NCBI GenBank assembly: GCA_958009085.1
Contig: OY253671.1
Location: 682,001 to 746,000 of the forward strand
Direction of reading: 5' to 3'
DNA: 64,000 nucleotides
Source: Protoeuglena noctilucae
Lineage: Eukaryota
Part shown: positions 36,915 through 55,759 of the stretch, in pieces
Layout of the letters: every line of letters starts with the position of its first letter
Numbering within the stretch: position 1 is the stretch's first letter
Program-made: the position numbers and the translations under genes
The notes under the pieces: model-generated
What the model saw: the letters and a program-made list of their open reading frames with translations, nothing else
The model's database searches: none
What the model was told of the DNA's origin: nothing

Positions 36915-37159
36915 ACTTTGAAGGAACACTGGAAACCCCTCGTACACCGCGAAATGAGCACAGCAGCCTTTCCAGCGGTAGGGTTTTGAGGGTTTCCCCA
37001 CCATGCCCAGCTCTCTTGACAGATCATCGTTCGTTTCTACGAAATAATCGATGAGACGCGGCGAGGTGCAGAGACGATTGGCGCGCTGCGAAGTTCTTGC
37101 CGTAACGACCCTGCCGTCCCTCGCCGCCTGGGGGCGCGCAGACAGGCTTAGGGTGGGCG

Positions 37160-40100
37160 ATGGAGGAGGAGGCCGTGGAGAAGGCCGGCACGGTGCCGGA
37201 CCCGGCCACGGTTTGGTGCATCTCGTGCCGAGCGTCTGCAAACACGGTGCACCCTGTGAGCCCTGCAGGGATCGAATTGCGCCTCGATCCTCGCCCTGCG
37301 CTCGCCCCATGCAACGAGCACCTTGGTCGCTGTCTCGACTGTCTGCTGCAAGCGTCTCGCATTATTTGGGCTCCGCTCCGGGCCTGGCGCCAAGGGGCGC
37401 GCGAACGGCGCTGGGCGCCCGGCCTGCTCCGATCTGCGCCGCTTTGATGGATGTTCTCACGCGCCACTCGACCTTTTCGCCGCGTAGCATGCAGATTTCG
37501 CTGCGGCGTCGCAACGATGCTCGGAATCGCAACGATGCTCGGAATCGCACCCGCTGCATCCCGCAGCCTCTTGGGTTCGAGCCATCGCTCATCGCGGCAC
37601 ACTCCTACCCGATGCTCCGCAGAGAAACGATGTCCTGGCCGCCTTTGGCCTCCCGTTCGTGCGCCCTGGGCGGGATGTCGCGTGCATCCCGGGCGACGGG
37701 CCCACGCTCGAGTTTGCCGAGTTCTGTCGAGAGATGCTTGGCCTGCAGAAGCACCAGATCGTGCAGCTGCCTCAGGCGAGACGCAGCTCAAGACAGCGCT
37801 GAGCAGCTCTCCAAGTTAGGCGCAGGAGTGGCCAGCAACCGCCTGCCCGATCCTGCTGCGCAGCCCTCGGCTTACATCGAGGCAGCCAACCTGACGGGCG
37901 AGATGCTGGCGCCCGTCGGGACGGCCCTCGCCAAGTGCCACGGCTCCGTCGACCCGAGGATCTTCTCCATGGTCACCTCGCCCCGCCTGGCCCGCGTCTT
38001 CAAAACCTTGCCGGGGCAGCCCACGATCCTGGCGGACAGCGCCAAGGAGATCAAGACCTTCTGCTCTCGTCCCATCCTGCACCGGCGCGTCAAGGACGTC
38101 GACTCCGGTGAGCGCCCACAGTCTACGCTGCCACACTCTCACCGAATGCCCTACCCACATCCACGCTGCCCCGCCCATGCCTTCCTTCCCGCCGCATCGA
38201 GTGCAAACCCTTGCATCCGACGCGTGCTTACCCGCTCGCGCCAGCCTGCCCGACGCATCGAGCGCGGGCGCCCTGGATGGGAAGTGCCCCACCCCCTGCC
38301 TGCAGTCCCTGCGCTCGTGGAGAGCTTGGATCTGAAGGTGCCCGTGTGCCGGGGGATGCTCTGCGAGGACTCCGACGACCTCCTCGTCGCCTACCGCCTC
38401 ATGGGTCTCTCCGAGGCCACCCTCCGGCCCATGCGCGCCAACCACCGCGGGGGCGAGGGCGCCGCCATCGTGTCCAGCGCCGAGGAGTTGCGCCAGTACG
38501 ACTTCCCCCACGGCCCCGTGGTCCTCGGCGAGGGGCTCTCCCTGGACCGCAGCTCCCAGGGCACCGACGTGACGGCCGTGTACTTTTTCGAGGGGTCCGA
38601 CTACGCCGGCGCGGCCCAGCGCGTGGCTGTCGGCCCCGCCTTCTTCGGATGCCAGTCCCTGGCGGTCCCGGAGGACTTCCACCGCCGCGCCATGGGTGAG
38701 GGTCGCGTTCGCGGTGGACGGAGTCCCGGACCCGGCTTAGTGGGGTTGACATCGACACGTCCAACGGGTCGGCGGCCGCCCAAGGGCACCGTCGTTGACT
38801 GGTAGCGCTCACGACGCGCGCCGTTCCGCTTGCCACCCGCAGAGGCTGCGACCCTGCTGGTGGGCGCGATCCGTCCCAAGGGCGTGGCGTCTGTGGTCTT
38901 CGGCATGGTCAACGCCGAGCCCGTCCTCATGTCCTGCCACCTGGATGCCGCGGGCATTGAGTACTTCGCGGCGCTTTTCATGTCCCGGTTCATCGAGCCC
39001 CGCTCCGAGCGGCCCATGTCCATCTTCGCCTGGCCGACGCAAGCCAACAGCGTCAAGGTCGACATCTGGACCTTCTGGGCGCGCCTGGCCGAGCACGGCA
39101 TCGCCCTCAACCCCCGCACGGACAAGACGGGCGTCTTCCCGCTCGTGCTCCTCAAGGACTCGATGGCCCTGCTCATTGCGGTCGGCGAGTCGGGTGAGAC
39201 GAGCCTCGCACACTCGCACATGCATCCCAGTACCCACCGGCAGCGGCCGGAGACATGAAAGGGCCCGGCGCTTGCACTGTGCAATGGTCGACAGCTGCTA
39301 CCTCCCTCGCCTTACGCTCTGTGTGTCTTCTGTTGCTGCAGATGACCGCATCATGGCCATGAAGGACCAGGCGGACCAGTACCTCCACGACAGCGTGGAG
39401 GACGCCCCCCTGGCACTCGTGTCCTGGGTCGACTCGAACCGGCGCATCTGGTGCAACGGGTGACTGACGACGTACCACGCATGTTTGCTGAAAAAGGAAG
39501 CCTCCGTGTGACAGGTCCCCGGGCAGCCACTTGCACCTCACCTGTCCTCCTCTCCCCGGCAAACTGACATGGCACTAACCTGGATGCGAGCACTGCCCGT
39601 GCTCTGTCGCGATCTCGCGTGGAATGCGAGACGTCTGGGTCCCCGCAGGCCTCGGCCCGAGTACTCCCGACTCACGCAGCGGTACAACATGCCGGCGCGC
39701 AACATCCCGCTCATGCGCAAGGGCAAGGACTACATCGTCCTGCCCGGCGACTTCGAGCCCATCCGCGAGTTCGCCGAGTTCGTGCAGGCCGTCATGGACC
39801 TCGACGAGGACCAGGTGAGGTGCCAGGGACTGCGCTGTGCTTTGCTATGGGTGTCGTCGAGGGTTCCGTCGTACAGAGGGAGCCCAGCGGTGGTGCGCCG
39901 ACAACTGTGTGCTTTGTTCAAGAAGCCTGGCACTGGGATGCGTGTTTGAGGACGCATGTGACGAGTGCGGAGCCCGAGGGTACTTTATTGCCGCTTGACG
40001 CTTGCAGATCATCTGGACGTCCGGGAAGAACTACCTGCTGGACGACGATATCGCGAGCGAGCCGACCGTGCTCGGCCGCATCAAGTCCGTGGTCGTGACC

Positions 40101-43100
40101 CACCCGAACGACAAGTTCACGCTGCTGCCCTACGCAGTCACGCCCAACTTCGAGCGCTGGGCCAACCAGCTCTCGGAGCTGGGGGTGTCGGTGTTCGGGG
40201 AGACCCTCGAGTGGATCGAGAAGTACGGCCACAAGGGCATCCTGCACAGGTGCGTCGTGTTGGCGGGAGGTGGAGAGAGTCTGGTGCGGACCTGAATTTA
40301 GCCTGGGAAGATGCTTGGGGCGTTCGGTGCGCGTGGTCTGCCGGTATCACGGTGCTAGACGGAGTGGACAGGCACGCTTTGGATGGTAAGTAGCCCTAAG
40401 AGTAACGCACCTGAGTGGCAAAGGGCGCCGTGCCTCCCCGTGGCCCTTGCAGGTGCCCCGCGCACGCCGACCAGCCCTCGGTGCTCGAGACGATGCAGGT
40501 CAACGCGCTGGTGCCCCGGGGATGGTTCTGGTGAGCAGCGCCGGCTGAGAGGGGGACCAGGTGGGAGCGGCGCATGGGTATGTGCTGCGACGGACACGAT
40601 GTAATCACTGGCCACACAACAGGGGTGGCCAGTGACGCGAGCCTTCGTGATTGCATCGGAACCGATCTGCGGATATCGACAGACCTTGCCAAGCATCGTG
40701 CTGTGCGTCCCGTGCCCTCGCAGCCGCAACCACGACGAGCTGATGATGGCCTACTCGATGATGAAGCAGGAGGGCATCCACCGGGTGGTCATCAAGCCCG
40801 TCTTTGGTGCCGCCGGTACGCTGCCATCGACCTTGCCATGCCCCCGTGACCGCACATGTGTTGCGCTGCGCCACATGGCTGGTGAGACACCGACGGTCCG
40901 TCCGCCCCCTGCCCCCAGGCGAGGGCATCCTGTTCCCTTCCACGGACGACGAGATCGAGAACTATCACTTCCCCATGGGCGCCGTCAACCTGGAGGTGCG
41001 GAGCTCTATCCGTAGCGCCATCCCCGTATCTGTCACGCTCGCCACGCATGTAACCCTCGCACTCGCACGCACATGCATCCCACCCCATCCCCTGCCCCCC
41101 ACCCCAGGAGTTCCTCGACCTGGACGTGGCCGAGGACGGCGTGGTGCTGAGCCCGGCCGTCCACTACATGGAGTCCAAGCTGATTGGCAAGGGCATGGTG
41201 GACCAGATCATGATCGGGACGGGCTACGCGGGTTGGAGGAGGTCGCAAGTGCCCAAGACGTACCAGATCGCGGCCAAGAAGACCATCGAGAGCATCTTAA
41301 AGAAGATCCAGCCGAGGTGACGCGTGACATCGTCCTGAATGGGGACTGCGACGCGAGACGTGATGTGTGGGAGACCGACGGCAGACGTGCTGTGGCAGAT
41401 GCGCATGCGGCGAGGCCCCTCGCCCGACTGCAGTAAGAATGAGCTGTCCCTGGCCATGAGAGTCGCCATCCCTCCACCTTGCCCTCGATCAACGGCCCCC
41501 GTCGCCCAGGTTGCCCACGCGCAGTTCGTGATCCTTGTCGCCGCCCGCTCGCTCGCAGGGGCCCCGGCGGCTTCGACTTCCTCTCCGTGGAGGGCAAGCC
41601 GGTGCTGGTGGACGTCAATACGGGCCGCTTCAACGGCGCCCACTCCCCGAAGCTCTTCATCGACATCCACGCCCCGGGCCAGGCCTTCTATTGCTGGAAG
41701 AGCAAGCCCGCCATCGACACAGACATCTGGACCTTCTGGAAGCTGCTCAAGTGAGTGCATGTGCCGGCTGCCACTGGCACTTCACCTCTTCCCTCACCTG
41801 TCGCCTCACCTCTCCCTCACCACATTTCGCCCCACCTCTCCCTTACCACCTCTCGCCTCGCCTGTCGCCCGCAGTGAGAGGGGCATCGCGTTCGACAAGG
41901 ACCGCCCCGGCGGCCCCGTGGGCGTGTTCCCGCTCATCTTCATGCGGGGCCTCTCCGGGCAGTACATCGCCGTCGCGGCCACGGACGAGGAGGCAAAGGC
42001 CCTGGCGGACGTGGCCAACCAGTGCCTGGCCGCCTGCCACCCCCGCAAGGCCGACGGCACCGTGCGGCGCGTGCGGGGCACCGTGTCGGTCTTCAAGTGC
42101 GCGGACATCCTCAAGCAGCGCTGGCGGCGCGTGTGGGTGCAGTCGCCGCAGCCGGAGATGATGGGCAACCGGGTGGACCACTTTGTCGACGCCCTGCCCA
42201 TGTACGCCGCCCCCGTCCTGCGCCCCCACCTTGACCTCGTCGTCCTCCCTGGCACCGAGGCGGCCCGCGAGCACTGGGGCTTTCTCAAGGGCGTGCTGGG
42301 CCTCGACGAGCAGCAGGCGCTCTTCGTGCCCGTCAAGGCGGGCGGCTACGGCGTGCACAGCCGGGGCCAGGCGCTGGACGCGCTCATCGACCCGGAGTTC
42401 GTCGAGTCGCTGCAGCAGCGGCTCCGGCAGGTCTCGGACCGCACTACCAGCTCCCCGCTCTTCATCGCCGCCGCCGCCATCGCCTCCGCCGCCGTCGCTG
42501 CCGGAGCCGTCACGGTCCCACCCCAGGCCGGGGGCGACGCAGAGACCCGCTCGGGGGGCTCCAGCACCGTGGGCCTCAACGCCGGGTCGCCGCCCGCGTC
42601 CGGCTCCGGCTTCCTGGCCCTGGAGCAGCACATGATCAACGCAGCGGCCCAGGCGGCCCAGGCGCAGGGCCGGGCCGACTCCCCCGCCCCGGCCACGCAG
42701 TCCGCCCCGCCGACCGCCGTGATGCCCCCCGTGCGGCCCAAGGGCCCCGGCATCTCCGGGTTCACCCTCGTGCCGTCGTCGCCCGGGGCCGCGTTCCACC
42801 ACTGGGCCGCCCTGCTGGTGCAGCAGGGCATGCGCGTGTTCGGCGACGACCCCGACTACCTGTCCAAGTACGGCACGCGCGCCGCTCTCCACCGCAACAT
42901 CGACAAACCCGGTGAGACAGCGGCGAGGGCAACGTTGCCGACGCGCTCGGCCGCCTTGTTACACACCCACACCCACACCCACACCCACACCCACACCCAC
43001 ACCCACACCCACACCCACACCTACGCCCGCACCCTCACCCACACCCACACCCTCACCCACACCCGCAGATGAGCCCTCTGCTTTGGAGTCCATGGGCATC

Positions 43101-46100
43101 GGCCTCCGCTCCGTCCCCGGCTTCGTCTGCCGCAGCCGCTCGGCCCTCCTCAAGGCCTGGGAGGCCCTGGGCCGGCGCCCCGCCATCATCCGCCCCTGCC
43201 GCGCCTTCTCAGTCGCATGGGAGGGCTCCCTGCCCATCACCACCGAGGCCCAGCTCCACCTCTACGACTTCCCCCAGGGCCCCGTGGTCCTCGAGGACCA
43301 CTCCTCCGTCGGCGGCGGCCCCGGGACCGTGGGCTTCCCCAGCTCCGTCTCCATGGTGCCCTGCCTGGGCCACGACGTGCTGGGCGTGGGTGTCGTGGAC
43401 CCTCTCATGGTCGGCACGCAGCTCACGGGCATCCGCACCTCGCTCGCCGACCAGGCCGCCCAGGAGGCCTACCTGGCCGCCGCCAAGCGCATCCTCGCCG
43501 CCGCCAAGCCCCGGGGCCCCACCACGCTCTGCTTCACGCTCCAGGACGGCGACCCCCAGCGCCCCGTGCTCCTCGACGTGCAGGCGGGGTTTTTCGGCCG
43601 CGAGCACTTCGTGGCGCTGTTCCTGGAAGAGCACGCACCCCCGGACGCCCACTTCCTGGCGTTTCAGGCGCCCATCCCGGAGGGGCTGGACGTGTGGTCC
43701 TTCTGGTCAAGGCTGGCGGAGGAAGGCATGTGCTTGACGCCGGAGGGGAGCGGCAAGGGGCTCTTCCCGCTCGTCTACGAGCGGGGCTCCACGTCGCTCC
43801 TCATGGCAGGTGCGCGGTTGCTGCGGGTATGTGGTGGGAACTGGGGCTGCGGTGACTGCGGTGGCAAGTGCTGTGGCACGCAGGCTAGCGACCAGGGTGG
43901 CGTATGAGTCAACAGCAGGAGTGCTGGCAGGCGGGCTGGTGGTGGGGATAGCAGCCGTGATGGCGTGGGGTTCACTCAACGCTCTCCTCCCTTCGCTCGC
44001 AGTGGGGGAGACGGGCGAGGACGTGCAGCACATCCGCGACAAGGCGATCGAAATCATGCGGCGCCCCGTGCAGGGCGCCCCGCTCCCCTGGGGCCCCTGG
44101 ACGGGCGACAAGGTCCGCCGGGTCGTCGCGCTGGGCAGCTCCGCCCCCTCGTCCGACTGCTGTGCCGCCATGTCCCTCGTTCGCCCCGGCAAGGACATCT
44201 GCCTCGTCCCGGAGGACCCCACGGGTGCGAATTGCAGCGCACAGCAGCACTTGCCCCACGTGACGCACGCGCCGTCCATCGCTCATGTCTTGCATGCCCC
44301 ACGCAAAGCCTGACCTGTATTCCCCTGCGCTCCCCCCGCAGGCGCCTTACAGGAGTACCGGGAGCTGGTCTCGAAGCTCCTGTCCCTCGGCCCGGCCCAG
44401 ATCCAGCACAGCATCGTGCTGTCAGGACGCACGGCGCACTTCCCGCCCACGGAGGACGGCCTCGACGCGGCCGTGGTGGCCATCAAGGGGGCCGTCATCA
44501 TGTCAGACCTGGGGCCCGAAGTGAGGGGCGGCTGCCGCACCGCAGGGGACCCCAGGGTCAAACCATGCAAGGTTCCTCATGTGCCCTTCCCTTGTCTCTG
44601 TCGCTTGAGTCAAGTGTCACTTTACGCACACCCTGGCCTGGCTTACCGGCAGTCTCCCCTGCCCTTCTCTTACCCACCCATTTACCCACTCACCCACAGC
44701 AGCCTCGCTCCCACCCCGCTACCCTTAAGCCTCCAGCATGCCCAATGCCCGCCCCACCCCCACCCTCCCACAGGAGCGCTTCACTCTGGTCCCCGGCCCC
44801 GGCAAGGGCACCCCCGACTCGTGGGCGGCGCAGCTGTCCGAGCTCCCCATCGGCATTTACACCGAGGACCCGGCTCTGTGGGCCAAGTACGGCGGCAAGC
44901 GGATGCTGTACCGTAACGTGGGGTCCACGCTGCCGGCCATGGTGGAGGAGATCGCCAGCCGGGAGGGCTTCCAGATCCCCGTGGCTCGGGGCTATGCGTG
45001 CCGCAGTCTCGAGGATCTCTTAGCGGCCTTTGAGCTCCTGGGGGGGGTCAAGTGCGTGGTGCGCCCCCTCGGGTGCCACACCATGGGTCGCGGCCTGGTC
45101 ATGATCGACTCCTCCGAGCAGCTGAGCCTTCTGGATACGACGCTCTACAATGGGGAGTTTGTGCTGGAGGAGTTCATGGCTCTGGACAAGGCCCGGGTGA
45201 GGCATGGGGTTGGGTAACGGGGTGCGATCGGTGGCCAGACAGCATAGCATGGTGCGCGAGCGGGGCTTGTGAAGCACAAGCGGATGCAGAGGGCCGTGCC
45301 TATCGCTCACCGCCCCCCCCGCGATCGCAGAACGGCCTGGCGCGCTCGTTCCTGCTCCCCTTCGTGGGGACGCACGTGCGCAAGGACGACGCGCAGGACA
45401 AGGTGACGGTGGGCACGACCGTGACGGGCCTGAAGCCCTCCAGCGCGACCAAGAAGCTCCTGGACAGGGCCGTGCGCATCGCCGTGGCCGTGCTGGCCCA
45501 CGTGAAGCCCAAGACCATCGGGGCCCTGCACTTCCACAGCTTCGAGAACCGCCCCATCCTCTCCGGCCTCACCGTTGGCCCCCTCGACCCCTACCACGTC
45601 GGCCAGGTCTTCTGCGACGAGCACGCGCCCCCGGGGTCCAAGAACTACCTCTGGAAGTTCACGCTTCCAGCAGAGATACCCGGTGAGTTAGTGCTGTGAG
45701 CGTCCTCCATGCTTAGCGAAGTCCCCTCATCAGGATTGCTTGTTGCCAACATCGGACTGACCCAGCGGCCTTTCCTCCCCGCACTCTCGCACGCTGCTTT
45801 CATCAGCACCCCTGCTGCCCCCTCACCGCACTACCCCCCCGGCGCCCGCAGTGAAGCGATACTACGCCGCGCTCGAGCAGAAGGGCCTGGCGTTCGTTCC
45901 CGGCCGCACCCAGCGCGGCGTCTTCCCGGTCTCCTTTGTGCGTGGGCTGCGGGGGTACCTGGTGGCCGTGGCGCAGTCACCCCTGGACGTAATGATGCTC
46001 CAGGAGCGCGCCGCGAGCCTCCACGAGGCCGTTATCAAGGGCAAGGCGACCCCTCCGCCCCCCGCGGCGGGTGACTCCTTCCGCCTGACCTCTGCCGAGG

Positions 46101-47895
46101 CGATCGACCTGCTCCTCATCCGCAACGCCGACGGCATCTACACGCCCGAGCCCTCCGCGCACCGCAACATGCTCCTGGGCGGCGGCAAGATTTTGGGCAT
46201 TTTTGGTGATGAGCAGGCGGCTGTTTTCTCGGCCATCCAGCACGTCCGCACCCTGGACGCATCGGGCATGGTCGTGTGCCCCGGCATCGTTGACATGCAC
46301 GTCCACGCCCAGGGAGGCGGCGGAGAGGTGCGTGGGGCGCCGCCGCTTGTTGATAGAGCCTCACTTGCCCCTGCGACAGTCGTTCGTGACCCTCGCCGCT
46401 TGCCCACGTCTCCCACCTCTCCTGGCGCACGTACCCCTGCCAGCACCCTTGCCCTCCCTGACCCCTGGGCCGCCCTTGGCCCATGGAAGGAGTAGCCACC
46501 TGAACTTCATAGTCTGCTTGAGCATGACTACCCCTGAGCTAACAGAATCACCCCTTGCTTCGATCTCAGGCCGGCCCCGCGACCCGTACCCCCGAGGCCC
46601 GCCTCTCGGAGCTGATCAACGGCGGCTTCACGATGATCGTGGGCATCCTGGGGACCGACGGGTACTCCCGGTCCCTCGAGGGGCTGCTGGCCAAGTGCCG
46701 CGGGCTGACAGAGGAGGGCGTGACCGCGTACATGTGGACCGGGTGCTACCGCGTGCCGCCCCCGACCATCACCGGCAGCATCACTAAGGACATCATGACG
46801 GTCGAGCAGGTCATCGGCGTCGGGGAGATCGCCGTGTCGGACCACCGGGGCTCGCAGCCCTCCCGCACGGACCTGGTGGCGGTGGCGTCCGAGTGCCGCG
46901 TGGCGGGGATGCTGTCGGGCAAGTGTGGCCTGGTGCACGTGCACATCGGCCCCGGGAAGGGCCTCCTGGGGCCGCTCTTCGACGTCGTGCAGAACACGGA
47001 CATCCCCATCACCCAGTTCCTGCCCACCCACATGGACCGGTCCGAGGAGCTCATCGCCGACGGGGCGCGGTGGCTTGCCGAGGGCGGGAACCTCGACTTC
47101 ACCGGGCGCAGCGTCCGGTGCCGCATCGCCCTCAAGGACTACGACGCCAAGGGACTCCTGAGGGACAACGGTGAGGGGGACTGAGACATGGGGACCTGTG
47201 CATGACCACCCACGCGCCAGGCAGCGCGGGCTGTGATGGGAGGCGCTCTCACATCGAGACTGAGTGCCCGAGGGCGGGCTTGCTTCGTTCGGCGCCCTGC
47301 GAGACTGTCGTGCCAGCTGACCTGTCCCGTGATGCCTCCCCCACTCGCAGTGAGCGTGTCCAGCGATGCGTGCGGCTCCCTGCCCTCCTTCGACACCAAT
47401 GGGCGCCTCGTGCGCTACCAGAGCGCCGACGCCAAGGCCCTCCTGCGCCTGCTGCGGCAGATGTACTTCACTGACCGATGGTGACGCGCGCGGGCCCCGC
47501 AGAGACGTGCTGCGAGCGTGCGTGCTGCGCCGGGGCGGCCTCGGCACGTTTTGGCCCGTCCCACCCCGCAGGCCTTTGGAGAAGATCCTGCCGCTGATGA
47601 CGAGCAATCCCGCCAAGATCCTAAAGCTTCGCAGCAAGGGCATGCTCGCCGTCGGCAAGGACGCCGACATCATCATGCTTTCGTCCACCAACCTCAAGCT
47701 GCGCTCCGTCATCACGCGGGTGAGGCTCGGCGGGCTCACTTGACTGACCAAAGAGCTGCCGCGGCCAGCCATCTGCATGACCGGGGACCGCGCCCACCCC
47801 CGCAGGGCAAGGTGCGGAAGGGGGAGGGCTGGGTCGCCCGGGGGGTGTTCGAGAAGGGGCTGGTGGTCAAGCCCCACATCCCGCGCATGGACTGA
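37160..47895 (+). CDS. Giant fusion protein: four tandem ATP-grasp peptide-ligase-like modules plus C-terminal isoaspartyl dipeptidase (5' end uncertain)
   Basis: About 20+ exons joined at GT-AG sites. Repeated module motifs (KYGxK/RxxLHR; RG..C.S..DL..A; YDFP.GPVVLE; D.W.FW..L...G.....G(V/L)FP..) occur four times, followed by an IadA domain in the same exon as the end of module 4. Confidence 0.85.
37509..37549 (+). repeat. 18-bp perfect tandem duplication TCGCAACGATGCTCGGAA
   Basis: Two full copies plus a partial third, read directly from the sequence. Confidence 0.85.
42961..43064 (+). repeat. (ACACCC)n microsatellite inside intron 42912-43068
   Basis: About 10 perfect copies then degenerate copies immediately before the cag acceptor at 43066-43068. 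Confidence 0.95.
46100..47895 (+). other. iadA: Isoaspartyl dipeptidase (IadA, amidohydrolase family M38) domain of the fusion protein
   Basis: CPGIVDMHVHAQGGGGE|AGPATRTPE, GILGTDGYSR, WTGCYRVP, VIGVGEIAVSDHRGS, VHVHIG, LPTHMDR, SSDACGSLP, TSNPA..KG.LAVGKDAD match the E. coli IadA motif order. Confidence 0.95.
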
Positions 47896-48170
47896 GCGAC
47901 GCTGTTGATTGTGACGCGCGCCGCTTGACCTCTGATCGCGTAGCCGGCTCGTCAGCTGCTGACACTCGCCAGACTGGCGGAAGTGGGACGCGTCCCCCGA
48001 GCAGCGCTAGCATAGCTGCGGGGTTTCGCCGCGCTGATTAAACCGTTGTGGTCTTGCCAGCGGGACATTGGAGGCTGGTCGGCTGCAGGAGCTCCCAGCT
48101 GAGCGAGCCCAGTCTGGGAAGCCCGGAGGGAAGCAGAGGGCGACAGGTCGGGGGGTAGTGGCGAGCAAAG

Positions 48171-51100: not shown

Positions 51101-52536
51101 GCTCTCGCCTCCCGCGGCGCGCCCGCGACCTGCGGTCCGCGTCGCCACCCGCAGCCACGTGCCCCGCATGGATGCGATCCTGGTCACGGTGTCGTCGTGC
51201 GCGTTCGACCTCGCCCTCTTCATGGTCATGGCCGTCATCTTCCTCCTCGGCTTCGTCGCCTCCTTCACCTACTGCTTCGGGCCGTACCTCAGCGACTACG
51301 CCACGGCCGGGGCCACGCTCTCGTGAGGGGCACATGTGCATGAGCACACACGCATGAATGTCACACGCATGAGAGCGCATGGGGCCGCCAGCGGCAGCCG
51401 GGGCCGCAACACGGAACCCATGACTCCCTTCTCTCCTCAGGATGCTCATGAGGATGCTCCTGGGAGACTTCAACTACCCAGAACTCCAGGGCGCCAACCC
51501 TATCATGGCCCCCATCCTCTTCTACCTGTACATCTGCTACATCTTCTTCATCCTCCTCAACATGTTCCTCGCCATCATCAACGGTGAGCGGCGGGCACGG
51601 CACTGGGCGGACCGACCCTCGCCGTCGCCCCAGCGTCTGCCCTCACGCGCACTGCCACCCCAGGCCCTCGTCGCCCACCACCGCTCTCATCACCGACATC
51701 ACCCTATCCGCCGCCTCATCACGGCGTCCTCCAGCCCCATCCCACCCCTCTCATCGCTTCGTCACACCGACGTGCCCCACGCAGACTCGTACGCGGAGGT
51801 GAAGGCCAACCAGACGGAGGAGGACCTCCTGTACTACGTCAGGCTCAAGAACACTCTCGTGGAGCGCCTCAACATCCTCCTGGGACGCAAGAGGGCCATC
51901 AATAAGCTCGCCAAGGACCTCATGAGGTGACTTGCGCGGGGCCTACGCCGGTGTGTTCCTGTGACATCCCCGCCGTCTTGCGATGCGGGAGCAGACCAGA
52001 CGCTTCAAGATTGCGCATGTACATCGCTTGTCTGACGCGCTTGGCCGGAGCACTTGGCATGTGCTGGACGCGCCGCTTGTGCCATGCGCCCTCGCAGAGA
52101 CGTGGAGGACGACAAGGTGACGATGGACGAGCTGCGGACGATGCTCCGGGAGAACCCCCAGGCTCTACACGTGCTCGAGACGACGACGGTGGAGGAGCTG
52201 ATGGCCAAGTACGACATCAACAACGACGGGTCGCTCTCTCGCGCGGAGGTGCGGGAGATCATCAAGGAGCTCGCGCTGAAGGAGGCGGCGGTGCAGGCGC
52301 GCATCGACGACGCGCAAGAGCACGGGGGCATGGCGCGGCCCACGACGGCGCACCGCCGGGCGCGGGGGATGACGGGCGTGGGCGACATGGGCATGAGCGG
52401 TGCGGCGATGGAGTCGATTGAGGAGCGGCTGGGCGGGCTGGACGAGGCCGTCAAGGACCTGTCGAGGAATGTGGCCAAGAAAATGGCCCTCATGATTGAG
52501 CTCATGATGTCCCTGTCGGAGCAGGTGGGGCGGTGA
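48171..52536 (+). CDS. PKD2: Polycystin-2 / TRPP cation channel with C-terminal EF-hand and coiled coil
   Basis: MRDFILYIVFVVVFS (S1), LRIRQ|VR, SWLSEDTRALIV, LLEFPPVG, LWNWVD, RMLLGDFNY, FFILLNMFLAIIN|DSYAEVK, EF-hand DINNDGSLSRAE. Confidence 0.93.
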
Positions 52537-53745: not shown

Positions 53746-54255
53746 GCCACCCGCTTGTCCCCCCTCGCTCCGTCCTTGAAATTCAGGGCCCTCCAACCGC
53801 CCTACAGTGAGTCGCGGCCTGGCCCGCGCTCAGTCGCCCTTGGCCTTGCCCGCGTCCCCCGGGTCGGCGCGGGGACCTCCACCACGAGCAGGTGGTACGC
53901 GAAGATGCACGCGATGGTGAGGAAGCCACACCAGGTCACTAGTTTCCCCAGCGTCTCCACGGCGATCATGACGCGGGGAGGCTCTGGAAGGCGACCGACG
54001 CGGCGCTCTCCTGCTTGGCACGTGGGAAGGGTCCCTCGCGCACCGTGAACAGGGATCGGCGGGCTCTGGATGATGCAAACACGGCGACGTGGCGCATTCC
54101 GCCCCTAATGTGGCGTCCCGGCCGCGACACCCTACTGGCGGGTATGACCCGGGTCGTCCAGCGCGGCCGGCGTATGCGCCCGGGGCCTTCGCCCGGCGCT
54201 CCCTCTTTCAGCGCCCACGCCTGTCGGCACCGTGACGTGAGCGAGGGGGGTCAAG

Positions 54256-55441
54256 ATGGGGCGCATGCACTCGAACGGGAAGGGTATCTCCAGGTCGGCG
54301 ATTCCCTACAAGCGCACCGCGCCGGCTTGGCTCAAGTCGACGTCGGAGGATGAGGTGAGGCCGCGGGGCCTTTCGGACGACTCGGCGCGACGCTGTGCCC
54401 CGGGGCGGGCAGACTCGGGCGAAAGGAGGGCGTGGTTGCCGGGCGAAAACGCCCGCGACCATTTTGCCGGCTGCTGGGGCCATTGGGGAGGCGCGGGGAC
54501 GGGGCTCGGGCGGGGAAGGCCCCGGTTCGCCGCCTGGGCGGCATCCCCGCGCACGTCGCGTGCGCCGAAGCGCGTTTGGTGGATTCTTGGGGGCTGTACC
54601 GCGGCCAGAGGTGGCTGCCGACCCCTCCCGCGCACGCGGGGGCGGGGCTCGCCGGCAGGGCCTCATTCGCCGAGCTGGGACCGTCATGCGCCGGGCGCAC
54701 TCGCGCCCAGAATGATTTGCTCAGTGCGGCCTCCCGGCGATGCCTGCGCTTTCCTGGGGCCGCACGCGCGCTGCTCGGGGGGCTGTCCGAGTGCTGGTCC
54801 GGCTCTTGCCGCCGCTGGCAGCCGCGTTCTACCCAGCTGCCCCCCTCCTCTGCCACAGGTGGTGGAGCTGATCTGCCGGCTGGCGAAGAAGGGCATGACG
54901 CCCTCCCAGATTGGCGTGGTGCTGCGTGACTCGCACGGCATCCCGCTGGTCAAGAACGTCACGGGGAACAAGATCCTCCGTATCCTGAGGGTGATTGCTT
55001 GCGCCTGCCGGGCCCCTCTCCTCGGCCCGAAGCCTCGGAGACCGGGCAGCCGCAGATGGCACGGGTGGAGGGCGTGCCCGAAGGCCTCCCCGACGCCGCC
55101 TGCTGTTTTGCCTTCGCAGGGGAAGGGGCTGGCGCCGGAGATCCCGGAAGACCTGTACTGCATGATCAAGAAGGCCGTGTCGATGCGCAAGGCGAGTCGG
55201 GGAAAGCACGGAGAGCGCCTGCACCACCCTGTGTCGGCCGCACGGCGAGCCCGGAGCGAGCTGCGCCGTCCCATCTTGACCGCAGCACCTGGAGCGCAAC
55301 CGCCGCGACAAGGACACCAAGTTCCGCCTCATTCTGGTCGAGTCCCGCATCCACCGCCTGGCCCGCTACTACAAGACGTCCAAGAAGCTGCCGCCCACGT
55401 GGAAGTACGAGTCTGCCACCGCCTCGGCCATGGTCGCATGA
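54256..55441 (+). CDS. RPS13: 40S ribosomal protein S13 (uS15)
   Basis: [20 protein letters not shown]..|[28 protein letters not shown]..|[11 protein letters not shown]..|[30 protein letters not shown]; 4 exons. Confidence 0.99.
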
Positions 55442-55759
55442 GCTCGCGTCCCCCAGCACTGCGGCCTTTGCTCCGCCGGATGCCTGGGCCGTTGAAGCCG
55501 AAGCTCTCGCGCGCCAGTCGAAGGCCGATGGCCCTTGCCAACGCGACAGCATGAAACTGGTGGGATGCTGATGGTGTCATCCAACGCAGCCGCCAGCGGC
55601 TGGGAGCGGGGCAAATACCCGCAGGTGTGCACTGGCGGCTCGTGATTGCCGGTTTACGCTTCGTCCGGTGCGGGAGCATCCCCTGCCAGACAGAAAGGAG
55701 CTCCAAGCTGGTTGCCACTGCCTCATTACTTGAGAGGCGCCTGCAATGGGAGCGCAGCC

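What the first reader, a model, noticed from the sequence alone, without database searches (positions are those of the whole stretch)
37160..47895. Giant eukaryotic ligase-hydrolase fusion: four tandem peptide-ligase (ATP-grasp) modules joined to an isoaspartyl dipeptidase
Seen in sequence: a ~10.7 kb spliced gene whose product repeats one ~450-500 aa unit four times (about 37.8-39.4, 39.4-42.0, 42.1-44.06 and 44.1-46.03 kb) and ends in an IadA domain. Every domain junction lies inside a single exon or ORF, so the fusion does not depend on splice guesses at the junctions. The junctions are module 1/2 in exon ~39341-39460, 2/3 in ORF 41339-43072, 3/4 in exon ~44002-44224, and 4/IadA in ORF 45851-46495 (..GVFPVSFVRG..LLLIRNADGIYTPEP..DMHVH). 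Established: ATP-grasp enzymes form amide bonds via acyl-phosphates, and IadA hydrolyses beta-Asp-X dipeptides, including the cyanophycin breakdown product beta-Asp-Arg. Inference: the unit's three-part layout resembles the Pgm1-type peptide-ligase family (pre-ATP-grasp RNIPLMRKGKDYIVLP..TLLPYAVT; ATP-grasp; C-terminal L..GIAFD..GVFP..YIAVAATDEEA). The protein may make and break iso-peptide (beta-aspartyl) bonds, for a nitrogen-storage polymer or dipeptide, an osmolyte, or a non-ribosomal peptide in a green alga. I know of no description of this architecture.
Basis: partly seen in the sequence, partly recalled or inferred. Interest (0 to 1): 0.92.

Follow-up and report, generated by a model that had tools for sequence, protein, structure and literature searches.

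The report
One-ligase, three-decoy ATP-grasp–IadA fusion enzyme
A real, expressed 2263-residue algal-type protein joins four ATP-grasp ligase-like units, only one of which still looks catalytic, to an intact beta-aspartyl dipeptidase, and the same unstudied design recurs in several distant groups of eukaryotes.

Summary
A + strand gene (CDS 37160-47895, 24 exons, 2263 aa in my model) carries four diverged repeats and a C-terminal IadA domain. One spliced 6.2-kb metatranscriptome contig runs from the second half of module 1 to the 3' UTR with GT..AG introns removed.

The modules are ATP-grasp domains. Their family profile hits ATP-grasp structures, and AlphaFold models match Streptomyces ATP-grasp peptide ligases, 3WVQ and BesA best.

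"Four tandem ligases" is not supported. Only module 2 keeps the family-invariant Lys/Lys/Glu/Asp/Asp/Asn/Arg set; modules 1, 3 and 4 have lost most of it. Of 62 modules scored in the window protein and relatives, 25 are canonical, one per protein except one protein with two.

The IadA domain keeps the metal ligands and dipeptide-binding residues of E. coli IadA.

The architecture is not unique. Of 29 long relatives (cryptophytes, choanoflagellates, Mantamonas, environmental eukaryotes), 26 carry the IadA domain. Seven full-text searches found no description of it.

Most likely it is a bifunctional amide synthetase/hydrolase with pseudo-ligase scaffolds. The substrate is unknown.

The parts
37160..47895 (+). 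Coding region of the fusion gene. It has 24 exons, a 6792-nt CDS including the stop codon, and encodes 2263 aa. Exons: 37160-37255, 37623-37760, 37864-38107, 38306-38695, 38843-39193, 39342-39459, 39649-39814, 40008-40249, 40453-40530, 40724-40815, 40919-40995, 41108-41316, 41559-41750, 41875-42911, 43069-43809, 44003-44224, 44342-44520, 44774-45196, 45331-45682, 45852-46327, 46570-47170, 47351-47480, 47572-47719, 47806-47895.
   Evidence: The joined exons give an open frame. All 16 introns checked start with GT and end with AG. The joints from 39192 onward are seen in RNA-library contigs. The first four exons are inferred, and so are exons 9-10.
37208..39385 (+). Module 1 (aa 17-421): a degenerate ATP-grasp-like module. 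The family key positions read R R . . G Q R V S H A where the family has K K . . E D Q D D N R.
   Evidence: It scores 208 bits against the family HMM. In the tree it groups with module 1 of P0104 and of Guillardia P0112, SH-aLRT 97.
39434..42031 (+). Module 2 (aa 438-850): the canonical, presumably active pre-ATP-grasp + ATP-grasp ligase module. It has K577, K632, E664, D696, Q697, D740, D752, N754 and R757.
   Evidence: It scores 498 bits against the family HMM over profile positions 6-413. All invariant residues are kept. Single exons are 56-63% identical to the canonical module of choanoflagellate relatives.
42113..44058 (+). Module 3 (aa 878-1409): a degenerate module. A roughly 107-aa Ala/Gly/Pro/Ser-rich insert (42434-42754) separates its pre-ATP-grasp part from its ATP-grasp part.
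   Evidence: It scores 41 + 190 bits against the family HMM. Key positions read R R W G E D P C D Q F. The AF2 model of exon 43071-43808 has pLDDT 89.4 and an ATP-grasp fold, with best Foldseek hits 8YNQ/8YND at TM 0.66-0.68.
44167..46021 (+). Module 4 (aa 1446-1839): a degenerate module.
   Evidence: It scores 200 bits against the family HMM. Key positions read K R G G E D K H G T P.
46100..47892 (+). IadA (metallo beta-aspartyl dipeptidase) domain, aa 1866-2263. Active-site residues: H1932, H1934, E1941, Y2001, E2027, R2034, H2066, H2095, R2098, D2147, S2151.
   Evidence: TIGR01975 matches four exons at 41.4 + 241.4 + 17.7 + 36.5 bits. Exon 46570-47170 matches solved IadA 7CDH at E 6e-57. 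The residue map against E. coli IadA is.
42912..43068 (+). Intron 14, which holds a CA/TG-type microsatellite.
   Evidence: The RNA contig skips it. The aligner's one 'other letter' in piece 41875-42915 is explained by GT at 42912 and AG at 43067-43068. The read-laying tool flagged 42956-43072 as a repeat.
47896..48048 (+). Approximate 3' UTR.
   Evidence: By length bookkeeping, record 1 of run X1 (6204 nt) extends about 244 nt beyond the acceptor at 47806. The end point was not shown directly.

Best explanation
One mRNA encodes a single polypeptide of about 2263 aa.

Shown: the layout is pseudo-ligase (m1), active ATP-grasp amide ligase (m2), pseudo-ligase (m3), pseudo-ligase (m4), then an intact binuclear-metal beta-aspartyl dipeptidase (IadA).

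Inferred from the conserved residues and from established ATP-grasp chemistry: m2 binds ATP-Mg, activates a carboxylate as an acyl-phosphate and joins it to an amine. Modules m1, m3 and m4 keep the fold but lack the Mg ligands, the catalytic Arg and one ATP-binding Lys. They therefore cannot ligate, and they probably act as structural or regulatory partners.

Inferred from the conserved IadA pocket: the C-terminal domain hydrolyses small beta-Asp-X dipeptides that have a free alpha-amino and alpha-carboxyl group.

Most likely overall function (inference by fusion logic and by analogy with trypanothione/glutathionylspermidine synthetase-amidase): it is a bifunctional synthetase/hydrolase that sets the level of a beta-aspartyl (omega-linked) dipeptide or closely related conjugate. 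The ligase makes it at the cost of ATP, and the IadA domain releases its parts again. The substrate and the physiological role (nitrogen buffer, osmolyte, or protecting group) are unknown.
For: Single transcript:
- In run X1, a 6204-nt RNA-library contig lies on 38842 to about 48048 with every intron removed at GT..AG. The same joints occur in X2 and X4, all from one study and at least two samples.
- The frame stays open across all 24 exons.
- Environmental contig L024, from a relative, carries residues 628-2260 (m2 second half, m3, m4, IadA) in one uninterrupted 4.9-kb frame at 51% identity.
- Contig L011 has a 2183-aa open frame collinear with the whole protein.

ATP-grasp identity:
- Of 46 relatives scanned, 15 hit PF02655 (9 at or above its cut-off) and 8 hit PF18604 (4 above).
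- The family profile hits 3DF7 at 3.6e-8, BesA 8YI6 at 1.7e-5 and cyanophycin synthase at 5e-4.
- The AF2 model of relative P0036 has pLDDT 94.9. Its best Foldseek hits are 8YND (TM 0.73), 3WVQ (0.73) and 8YI6 (0.71), above PurK/PurT at 0.55-0.61.
- The window's own exon 15 gives the same result.

One active module:
- Only m2 keeps the K135, K188, E220, D250, Q251, D295, D307, N309, R311 pattern (P0036 numbering).
- Across 62 scored modules, 25 are canonical and 37 are not. No protein has more than one canonical module except P0106, which has two.

IadA:
- Fused orthologues pass the TIGR01975 equivalog cut-off, scoring 354-384 bits against 331.25 in 4 of 4 tested.
- At the 12 E. coli positions I checked, 11 are identical. 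The exception is K162 to E, which solved IadA 7CDH also shows.

The fusion is conserved: 26 of 29 long relatives match the window's IadA region by blastp, and 20 of 29 carry amidohydrolase Pfam domains.

Precedent for ligase plus hydrolase of the same bond: trypanothione synthetase-amidase (PMC2427367; search listing and start of abstract only).
Against: - No substrate evidence of any kind was obtained. The ligase could act on something the IadA domain never sees.
- The nearest characterised ligases share only 14-16% identity. As I recall their chemistry, they make gamma-glutamyl or peptide bonds, not beta-aspartyl bonds.
- In 7 bacterial (candidate phyla radiation) loci with single-module relatives, no IadA is adjacent.
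- A ligase and a hydrolase of the same bond in one protein would be a futile cycle unless regulated, and I found no regulatory feature.
- 'Catalytically dead' rests on sequence only. K188 to R could still bind nucleotide.
- Exons 1-4 and the start codon lack direct RNA support in the tables I could see.
- All RNA evidence comes from assembled contigs of one study.
Confidence: 0.5

Rival explanations
1. Sequential salvage enzyme rather than an opposing pair. The IadA domain frees L-Asp and X from beta-Asp-X dipeptides, which arise from damaged proteins, digested prey or cyanophycin-type material. The ligase then uses one of those products at once to build a normal alpha-linked dipeptide or another conjugate.
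For: - The IadA pocket is intact.
- The language-model look-alike search places the module near clusters that carry LdmS_N. As I recall, LdmS is an L-Asp-L-Met ligase; I saw only the search listing for PMC9486568. Other nearby clusters are BtrJ-like ligases.
- Many named carriers are bacterivores or mixotrophs: choanoflagellates, Mantamonas, Picozoa and cryptophytes.
Against: - There is no evidence for channelling or for the ligase's substrates.
- The look-alike search gives leads only and no alignment.
- The taxon list is small and depends on what happens to be in the databases.
Confidence: 0.2
2. Protecting-group logic, as recalled for BtrJ and BesA. The ligase caps an amine metabolite with an acidic aminoacyl group, separate enzymes modify the capped intermediate, and the IadA domain removes the cap.
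For: - BesA (8YI6, named 'L-propargylglycine--L-glutamate ligase') is among the best sequence-profile and fold matches.
- BtrJ-named clusters top the look-alike search.
- In 3 of 6 bacterial loci whose flanks I scanned (of 7 found), the gene directly downstream on the same strand encodes an amide hydrolase: an M20/M42 peptidase in L003 and L004, and GATase_4 in L002.
Against: - No modifying enzyme is fused, and none is adjacent in the window. The neighbours are ion channels and a ribosomal protein.
- The IadA pocket residues that hold a plain dipeptide are unchanged.
- The bacterial sample is tiny.
Confidence: 0.15
3. One reading: four active ligase modules work in series, like a non-ribosomal assembly line, to make an oligomer or polymer that the IadA domain trims.
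For: - All four modules retain the fold and many structural residues, including D37, P42, Q64, G161, P189, F296, G364 and P367.
- They are kept as open frames in several lineages.
- Module 4 of P0104-type relatives keeps both Lys, E220 and D250.
Against: - Modules 1, 3 and 4 of the window lack K188, D295 (V, C or H instead), N309 and R311. Modules 1 and 4 also lack D307.
- The same one-canonical-module pattern holds across relatives: 25 canonical of 62 modules.
- No carrier or condensation domains were found.
Confidence: 0.07
4. Annotation or assembly artefact: two or more neighbouring genes, or a pseudogene, merged by reading through.
For: - The RNA evidence consists of assembled contigs from one study.
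- The first four exons are not directly supported.
Against: - Every domain junction lies inside an exon present in the spliced contig.
- The frame is open for 2263 codons.
- Independent contigs L011 and L024, and transcriptome proteins of Mantamonas and three choanoflagellates, show the same fusion in one frame.
Confidence: 0.02

Closest known systems
Streptomyces ATP-grasp peptide ligases (PDB 8YND/8YNQ; 3WVQ/3WVR, which I recall as PGM1 of pheganomycin biosynthesis)
   Same: These are the best structural matches over the whole module, covering the pre-ATP-grasp, ATP-grasp and C-terminal parts. TM is 0.73 for the family model and 0.66-0.68 for the window's module 3 core. Some relatives carry the PF18604 pre-ATP-grasp domain.
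   Different: Identity is only 14-16%. The family profile gave no match to them at E<=10. PGM1_C (PF18105) was found in 0 of 46 relatives. They are stand-alone bacterial enzymes, whereas here the module is in tandem with degenerate copies and fused to IadA.
BesA, L-propargylglycine--L-glutamate ligase (PDB 8YI6), and BtrJ-type ligases
   Same: The family profile hits 8YI6 at E 1.7e-5 and the fold match has TM 0.71. BtrJ-named clusters are the nearest neighbours in the look-alike search. As I recall, these enzymes ligate through a side-chain carboxylate of an acidic amino acid, which is the chemistry needed to make an IadA substrate analogue.
   Different: Sequence identity is low, they are bacterial pathway enzymes, and they have no fused hydrolase. 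Their products are gamma-glutamyl rather than beta-aspartyl (recalled).
Isoaspartyl dipeptidase IadA (E. coli b4328; PDB 1ONW, 7CDH and others)
   Same: The domain is 38% identical to E. coli IadA over 386 aligned positions. At the 12 positions I checked, 11 are identical, including H68, H70, H201, H230, D285, E77, Y137, R169, R233 and S289. Fused orthologues pass the TIGR01975 equivalog cut-off.
   Different: K162 (recalled as the carboxylated bridging lysine of E. coli) is Glu here, as in solved 7CDH. The domain forms the C-terminus of a 2263-aa eukaryotic protein instead of a free protein of about 390 aa.
Trypanothione / glutathionylspermidine synthetase-amidase
   Same: It has the same logic: an ATP-grasp synthetase and a hydrolase of the amide it makes, in one polypeptide (PMC2427367; search listing and start of abstract only).
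   Different: Its amidase is, as I recall, an N-terminal cysteine (CHAP-type) domain, not a metallo amidohydrolase. It has no pseudo-ligase repeats and uses unrelated substrates. This is an analogy only, not homology of the hydrolase.
Cyanophycin synthetase CphA1/CphA2 plus IadA-type dipeptidases
   Same: It combines ATP-grasp chemistry with beta-Asp-Arg and IadA-type hydrolysis in one pathway. There is a weak local profile hit to cyanophycin synthase at E about 5e-4, covering roughly 50-70 residues.
   Different: No Mur-ligase-like domain or other CphA domains were detected. The fold matches rank PGM1/BesA-type ligases first, not CphA.

Membership tests
ATP-grasp superfamily | ATP-grasp fold | tested here: met
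   The AF2 model of window exon 43071-43808 has pLDDT 89.4. All listed Foldseek PDB hits are ATP-grasp enzymes, with a best E of 2.8e-8. The family model P0036 has pLDDT 94.9 and gives the same result.
ATP-grasp superfamily | ATP-binding lysines, Mg-binding acidic/Asn residues and catalytic Arg | tested here: met
   Met in module 2 only: K577, K632, E664, D740, D752, N754, R757. Not met in modules 1, 3 and 4. The roles of these residues are assigned from general ATP-grasp knowledge (recalled).
ATP-grasp superfamily | Curated Pfam ATP-grasp model matches the window's own sequence | tested here: not met
   None of the 20 window ORF pieces matched an ATP-grasp model at E<=0.01. The link is transitive, through relatives and the family profile. 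The spliced protein could not be submitted to the Pfam tool.
PGM1/BesA/BtrJ-like ligases (pre-ATP-grasp + ATP-grasp) | PF18604 pre-ATP-grasp domain | tested here: inconclusive
   The window pieces gave no hit; in module 2 this domain is split over exons 7-8. Of 46 relatives, 8 hit it, 4 above the cut-off. The L011 open frame scores 51.8 bits. Window module 2 aligns to family profile positions 6-413.
PGM1/BesA/BtrJ-like ligases (pre-ATP-grasp + ATP-grasp) | PGM1_C (PF18105) C-terminal domain | tested here: not met
   It was found in 0 of 46 relatives at E<=1e-3. Structurally, however, the full-length model aligns with 3WVQ over 464 columns.
PGM1/BesA/BtrJ-like ligases (pre-ATP-grasp + ATP-grasp) | Known substrate chemistry (peptide or gamma-glutamyl ligation) | not testable with these tools
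   This needs an enzyme assay.
IadA, beta-aspartyl dipeptidase (TIGR01975 equivalog) | Score at or above the curated cut-off of 331.25 bits | tested here: inconclusive
   The window exons score 41.4 + 241.4 + 17.7 + 36.5 = 337 bits, but this is only a rough sum of separate exon scores. The contiguous fused orthologues P0001, P0104, P0005 and P0004 score 371.9, 384, 354.4 and 355.5 bits.
IadA, beta-aspartyl dipeptidase (TIGR01975 equivalog) | Binuclear metal ligands and dipeptide-binding residues of E. coli IadA | tested here: met
   At 12 checked positions 11 are identical. K162 is replaced by E, as in solved 7CDH. The roles of these residues are recalled from the E. coli literature.
Cyanophycin synthetase | ATP-grasp G domain together with a Mur-ligase-like M domain | tested here: not met
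   There is only a local hit of roughly 50-70 residues at E about 5e-4. No Mur-ligase family was found in the window pieces or in relatives.
Glutathionylspermidine/trypanothione synthetase-amidase | CHAP-type cysteine amidase fused to the synthetase | tested here: not met
   The hydrolase here belongs to the amidohydrolase superfamily, PF01979/PF07969 and TIGR01975. The resemblance is in logic only.

The most novel reading that the evidence does not exclude
A widespread but unrecognised eukaryotic enzyme makes and breaks a free beta-aspartyl dipeptide. This would be a polymer-free counterpart of cyanophycin metabolism, serving as a nitrogen or osmotic buffer. The three pseudo-ligase modules would act as ligand-sensing regulators that decide between synthesis and hydrolysis.
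Probability: 0.2. Interest if true: 0.8.

Novelty: new variant of a known kind. Interest (0 to 1): 0.6.

Why it matters
Both catalytic parts belong to known families. The combination does not appear in the literature I could search: one live ATP-grasp ligase, one to three conserved dead copies, and an intact metallo beta-aspartyl dipeptidase. Yet it is conserved in cryptophytes, choanoflagellates, Mantamonas and marine algal-type eukaryotes. It therefore points to an undescribed small-molecule (probably isopeptide) metabolism in eukaryotes. It is also a clear natural example of pseudoenzyme domains retained beside their active paralogue. Finally, it corrects the tempting assembly-line reading and tells experimenters which module to assay.

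Tried and rejected
- Pfam and NCBIfam scans of the window's own ORF pieces gave no ATP-grasp family. I had to go through relatives instead.
- phmmer of single relative P0036 against PDB sequences found nothing. The profile search did find matches.
- The search for related loci with the 31-sequence alignment A1 failed because it had no conserved stretch. I repeated it with the 6-sequence alignment A2.
- Complex prediction on the pseudo-module against the canonical module of Guillardia P0112 scored 0.00, which is no verdict. The alignment was not used by the tool. The idea of an internal pseudo-dimer therefore stays untested.
- Whether window modules 3 and 4 are orthologous to modules 3 and 4 of P0104-type proteins is unresolved. 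The quick tree puts the window's copies on long branches, although the whole proteins are collinear.
- A search for a bacterial origin of the fusion found none. All environmental loci I inspected look eukaryotic (MYND and VWA neighbours, introns), and the 7 bacterial loci have no IadA.
Bins with zero depth in X3 and X4 say nothing.
- Earlier notes of this scan held nothing.
- Seven literature searches found no description of the fusion. One paper (PMC9974463) was searched for terms only and mentions no fusion. Subscription-only papers and supplements were not seen.

Full report
**Setting**

The window is GC-rich throughout: 0.63-0.72 in 2-kb steps. It reads as eukaryotic DNA with short introns. 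On the + strand between about 37.1 and 48.0 kb, many stop-to-stop pieces read as good protein.

**Is the repeat real?**

I ran an all-against-all blastp of the 95 + strand pieces of 30 aa or more in this region. It gave 13 pairs at E<=1e-3. These are 31-40% identical, with a best E of 5.7e-15, and they tie four successive units together.

A profile built from 31 single-module relatives finds four modules in my spliced model:

| Module | Residues | Score (bits) |
|---|---|---|
| m1 | 17-421 | 208 |
| m2 | 438-850 | 498 |
| m3 | 878-951 plus 1092-1409 | 41 + 190 |
| m4 | 1446-1839 | 200 |

In window coordinates these are 37208-39385, 39434-42031, 42113-44058 and 44167-46021. The repeat is far beyond chance.

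**Is it one gene and one transcript?**

- Four marine metatranscriptome runs from one study hold 25-57% of the sampled words of 38000-47900, as expected for spliced RNA.
- When laid on the window, one 6204-nt contig of run X1 covers 38842 to about 48048 with the introns removed. The listed joints all fit GT..AG. The same joints are seen in X2 (same sample) and partly in X4 (another sample).
- The one joint that did not fit, 42915/43073, resolves to an intron at 42912-43068 and explains the single mismatch the aligner reported.
- Two small exons, 40453-40530 and 40724-40815, are not in the printed tables. I placed them using the contig's length bookkeeping (651 nt to fill) and by homology to choanoflagellate proteins.
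- The four 5' exons (37160-37255, 37623-37760, 37864-38107, 38306-38695) are inferred only from GT..AG sites, frame and module homology.
- The resulting 24-exon CDS, 37160-47895, is open for 2263 codons.
- The upstream gene ends with a poly(A) tail at 36935, so the gene is bounded on that side.

Caveats: these are assembled contigs from one study, and the first 1.7 kb has only low, unlisted cover.

**Independent support for the fusion**

- A close relative (P0001, 48-74% identical per exon) is a 1525-aa open frame that carries the end of m2, then m3, m4 and IadA.
- Environmental contig L024 carries residues 628-2260 of my model in one uninterrupted frame at 51% identity. It has three short gaps with frame changes further upstream, as expected of genomic DNA with introns.
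- Contig L011 has a 2183-aa open frame collinear with the whole protein.
- Transcriptome-derived proteins of Mantamonas plastica (2009 aa), Salpingoeca urceolata (1272 aa) and Hartaetosiga gracilis (1308 aa) show modules plus amidohydrolase in one frame. The last two are marked 'complete' by their source.

**What are the modules?**

- The window's own pieces hit no ATP-grasp model in Pfam or NCBIfam.
- An exhaustive phmmer search with the module 3 core found 83 relatives at E<=1e-3.
- Of the 46 I scanned, 15 hit ATP-grasp_3 (9 at or above its cut-off) and 8 hit PreAtp-grasp PF18604 (4 above). None hit PGM1_C.
- The family profile matches solved ATP-grasp proteins: 3DF7 at 3.6e-8, BesA 8YI6 at 1.7e-5 and cyanophycin synthase at about 5e-4.
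- An AlphaFold model of single-module relative P0036 (pLDDT 94.9) is closest to 'ATP-grasp peptide ligase from Streptomyces' 8YND (TM 0.73), 3WVQ (0.73) and BesA (0.71). These rank ahead of PurK/PurT-type enzymes at 0.55-0.61.
- The window's own exon 43071-43808 (module 3 core; pLDDT 89.4) gives the same ranking.
- I recall 3WVQ as PGM1; its PDB title says only 'ATP grasp protein'.

So the fold and the resemblance to PGM1/BesA-type ligases are supported. Membership of the PGM1 orthologous group is not: identity is 14-16% and there is no PGM1_C.

**Are all four modules ligases?**

No. The 31 single-module relatives share invariant K135, K188, G195, G197, G260, D295 and D307, and nearly invariant E220, Q251, N309 and R311, in P0036 numbering. 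By general ATP-grasp knowledge these are the ATP-binding lysines, the Mg ligands and the catalytic arginine.

Aligned to the profile, the modules compare as follows:

| Module | Key positions (135, 188, 195, 197, 220, 250, 251, 295, 307, 309, 311) |
|---|---|
| Family | K K G G E D Q D D N R |
| m2 | all kept, as K577, K632, E664, D696, Q697, D740, D752, N754, R757 |
| m1 | R R G G G Q R V S H A |
| m3 | R R W G E D P C D Q F |
| m4 | K R G G E D K H G T P |

The pattern is general. A search restricted to proteins of 699-2226 aa found 29 relatives. In these and the window protein, 62 modules could be scored. Of those, 25 are canonical and 37 are not. No protein has more than one canonical module except P0106, whose two are near-identical copies.

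The degenerate modules still keep the fold-defining residues and stay open in several lineages, so they are maintained. They are pseudo-ligase domains, not decayed sequence.

**Layouts in relatives and the tree**

- Two layouts occur. One is degenerate-canonical-IadA, seen in choanoflagellates and Guillardia theta GUITHDRAFT_74499. The other is degenerate-canonical-degenerate-degenerate-IadA, seen in the window, P0104 (2137 aa), Hanusia phi and several environmental proteins.
- In a quick tree, the eukaryotic canonical modules form one group (SH-aLRT 98) beside a group of nine of the eleven single-module proteins (the other two, P0014 and P0011, fall inside the canonical group).
- Window module 1 groups with module 1 of P0104 and Guillardia (97).
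- Window modules 3 and 4 sit on long branches, and their orthology to P0104's modules 3 and 4 is unresolved.

**The IadA domain**

- TIGR01975 matches four exons collinearly.
- The central exon matches solved isoaspartyl dipeptidases at E 6e-57 for 7CDH and 8e-50 for E. coli 1ONW.
- Fused orthologues pass the equivalog cut-off in 4 of 4 tested.
- I aligned the domain to E. coli IadA taken from the K-12 record. The window domain keeps H68, H70, E77, T106, Y137, R169, H201, H230, R233, D285 and S289. K162 is Glu, as in 7CDH.
- I recall these residues as the metal ligands and the residues that hold the free amino and carboxyl groups of a beta-Asp dipeptide.
- The domain therefore looks like an active dipeptidase for small beta-Asp-X substrates.

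**Context**

- The neighbouring genes are a BK-type potassium channel (upstream), a polycystin-type channel and ribosomal protein S13 (downstream). None is informative.
- Single-module relatives occur in bacteria. Seven loci were found in candidate-phyla-radiation genomes, and none has an adjacent IadA.
- In 3 of the 6 loci whose flanks I scanned, the next gene on the same strand is another amide hydrolase: an M20/M42 peptidase twice and GATase_4 once. This is a weak hint that ligase-hydrolase pairing is older than the fusion.
- The environmental loci with the fusion that I inspected look eukaryotic.
- A look-alike search places the canonical module near clusters named BtrJ-type ligase, PGM1-like and LdmS_N. 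These are leads only.

**How it most likely works**

Shown: one polypeptide with one intact ATP-grasp site and one intact IadA site.

Inferred: module 2 activates a carboxylate with ATP and forms an amide. The IadA domain hydrolyses beta-Asp-X.

Because 26 of 29 long relatives keep the two together, they probably act on the same small molecule. The best precedent is trypanothione/glutathionylspermidine synthetase-amidase, an ATP-grasp synthetase fused to a hydrolase of its own product (PMC2427367; listing and start of abstract only). Another eukaryotic fusion of an amidohydrolase with an amide ligase-like domain, FluG, turned up in the same way (PMC6478659; listing only).

I therefore favour a regulated make-and-break enzyme for a beta-aspartyl or similar omega-linked dipeptide, with the pseudo-modules as scaffold or sensor. 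I put the architecture and one-active-module parts at about 0.8-0.95, and the beta-aspartyl make-and-break function at about 0.3.

The rivals are:
- sequential salvage;
- protecting-group logic as in BesA and BtrJ;
- the four-ligase assembly line, which is disfavoured by the lost residues;
- an assembly or annotation artefact, which is disfavoured by the RNA and the independent contigs.

**Novelty**

Seven full-text searches found no description of an ATP-grasp-IadA fusion or of the named locus tags. Subscription-only papers and supplements were not seen. Public records call the proteins 'hypothetical protein', 'ATP-grasp domain-containing protein', 'dihydropyrimidinase' or 'beta-aspartyl-dipeptidase'.

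It is a new variant built from known kinds. It is not unique to this organism, and it is less exotic than four tandem ligases. It is still a conserved, unstudied eukaryotic enzyme with a clear experimental handle.

Noticed in passing
window 42956-43072 (inside intron 42912-43068): A CA/TG-type dinucleotide microsatellite. It reads as His-Thr repeats in the long ORF 41339-43072 and was flagged as a repeat by the read-laying tool.
   Followed up: partly
window 42114-42514: There is a depth spike in runs X3 and X4 (102.5 and 632.8, against single digits elsewhere). Of the 409 X4 contigs laid on the stretch, 374 were only 95-99% alike. Possible causes are related strains, or a conserved or low-complexity stretch shared with other organisms. 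It remains unexplained.
   Followed up: no
window 42434-42754: A roughly 107-aa Ala/Gly/Pro/Ser-rich insert splits module 3 between its pre-ATP-grasp part and its ATP-grasp part.
   Followed up: partly
window about 32.7-36.9 kb, + strand: The upstream gene has Ion_trans_2 and BK_channel_a domains, so it is a BK-type potassium channel. An RNA contig ends in a poly(A) run at 36935.
   Followed up: partly
window 51424-51927 and 54241-55551, + strand: Downstream pieces match a polycystin cation channel (PKD_channel) and ribosomal protein S13/S15.
   Followed up: no
P0014 (Picozoa sp., 570 aa): A single canonical module is fused to a C-terminal RING finger instead of IadA. This hints that the ligase may meet protein partners in some lineages.
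   Followed up: no
L003 2948-4027, L004 8288-9361, L002 8286-9050: In candidate-phyla-radiation bacteria, the single-module ligase gene is followed on the same strand by an M20/M42 peptidase (two loci) or a GATase_4 amidohydrolase-like gene (one locus).
   Followed up: partly
P0106 (1627 aa, environmental): This is the only relative with two canonical modules. The two are near-identical to each other (branch lengths 0.06-0.07), suggesting a recent duplication or an assembly artefact.
   Followed up: no
P0009/P0089 (Salpingoeca rosetta PTSG_04013, 890/912 aa): P0009 gave no blastp match to the IadA region, unlike the other choanoflagellate proteins; its variant P0089 was not put through that test (it did go through the module HMM). 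The cause could be a truncated gene model or a real loss.
   Followed up: no
window 47231 to 44040 and 42484 to 43490 (run X4): Two odd joints with extra letters between the sides, one of them going backwards. They are probably chimeric contigs (table 5c).
   Followed up: no
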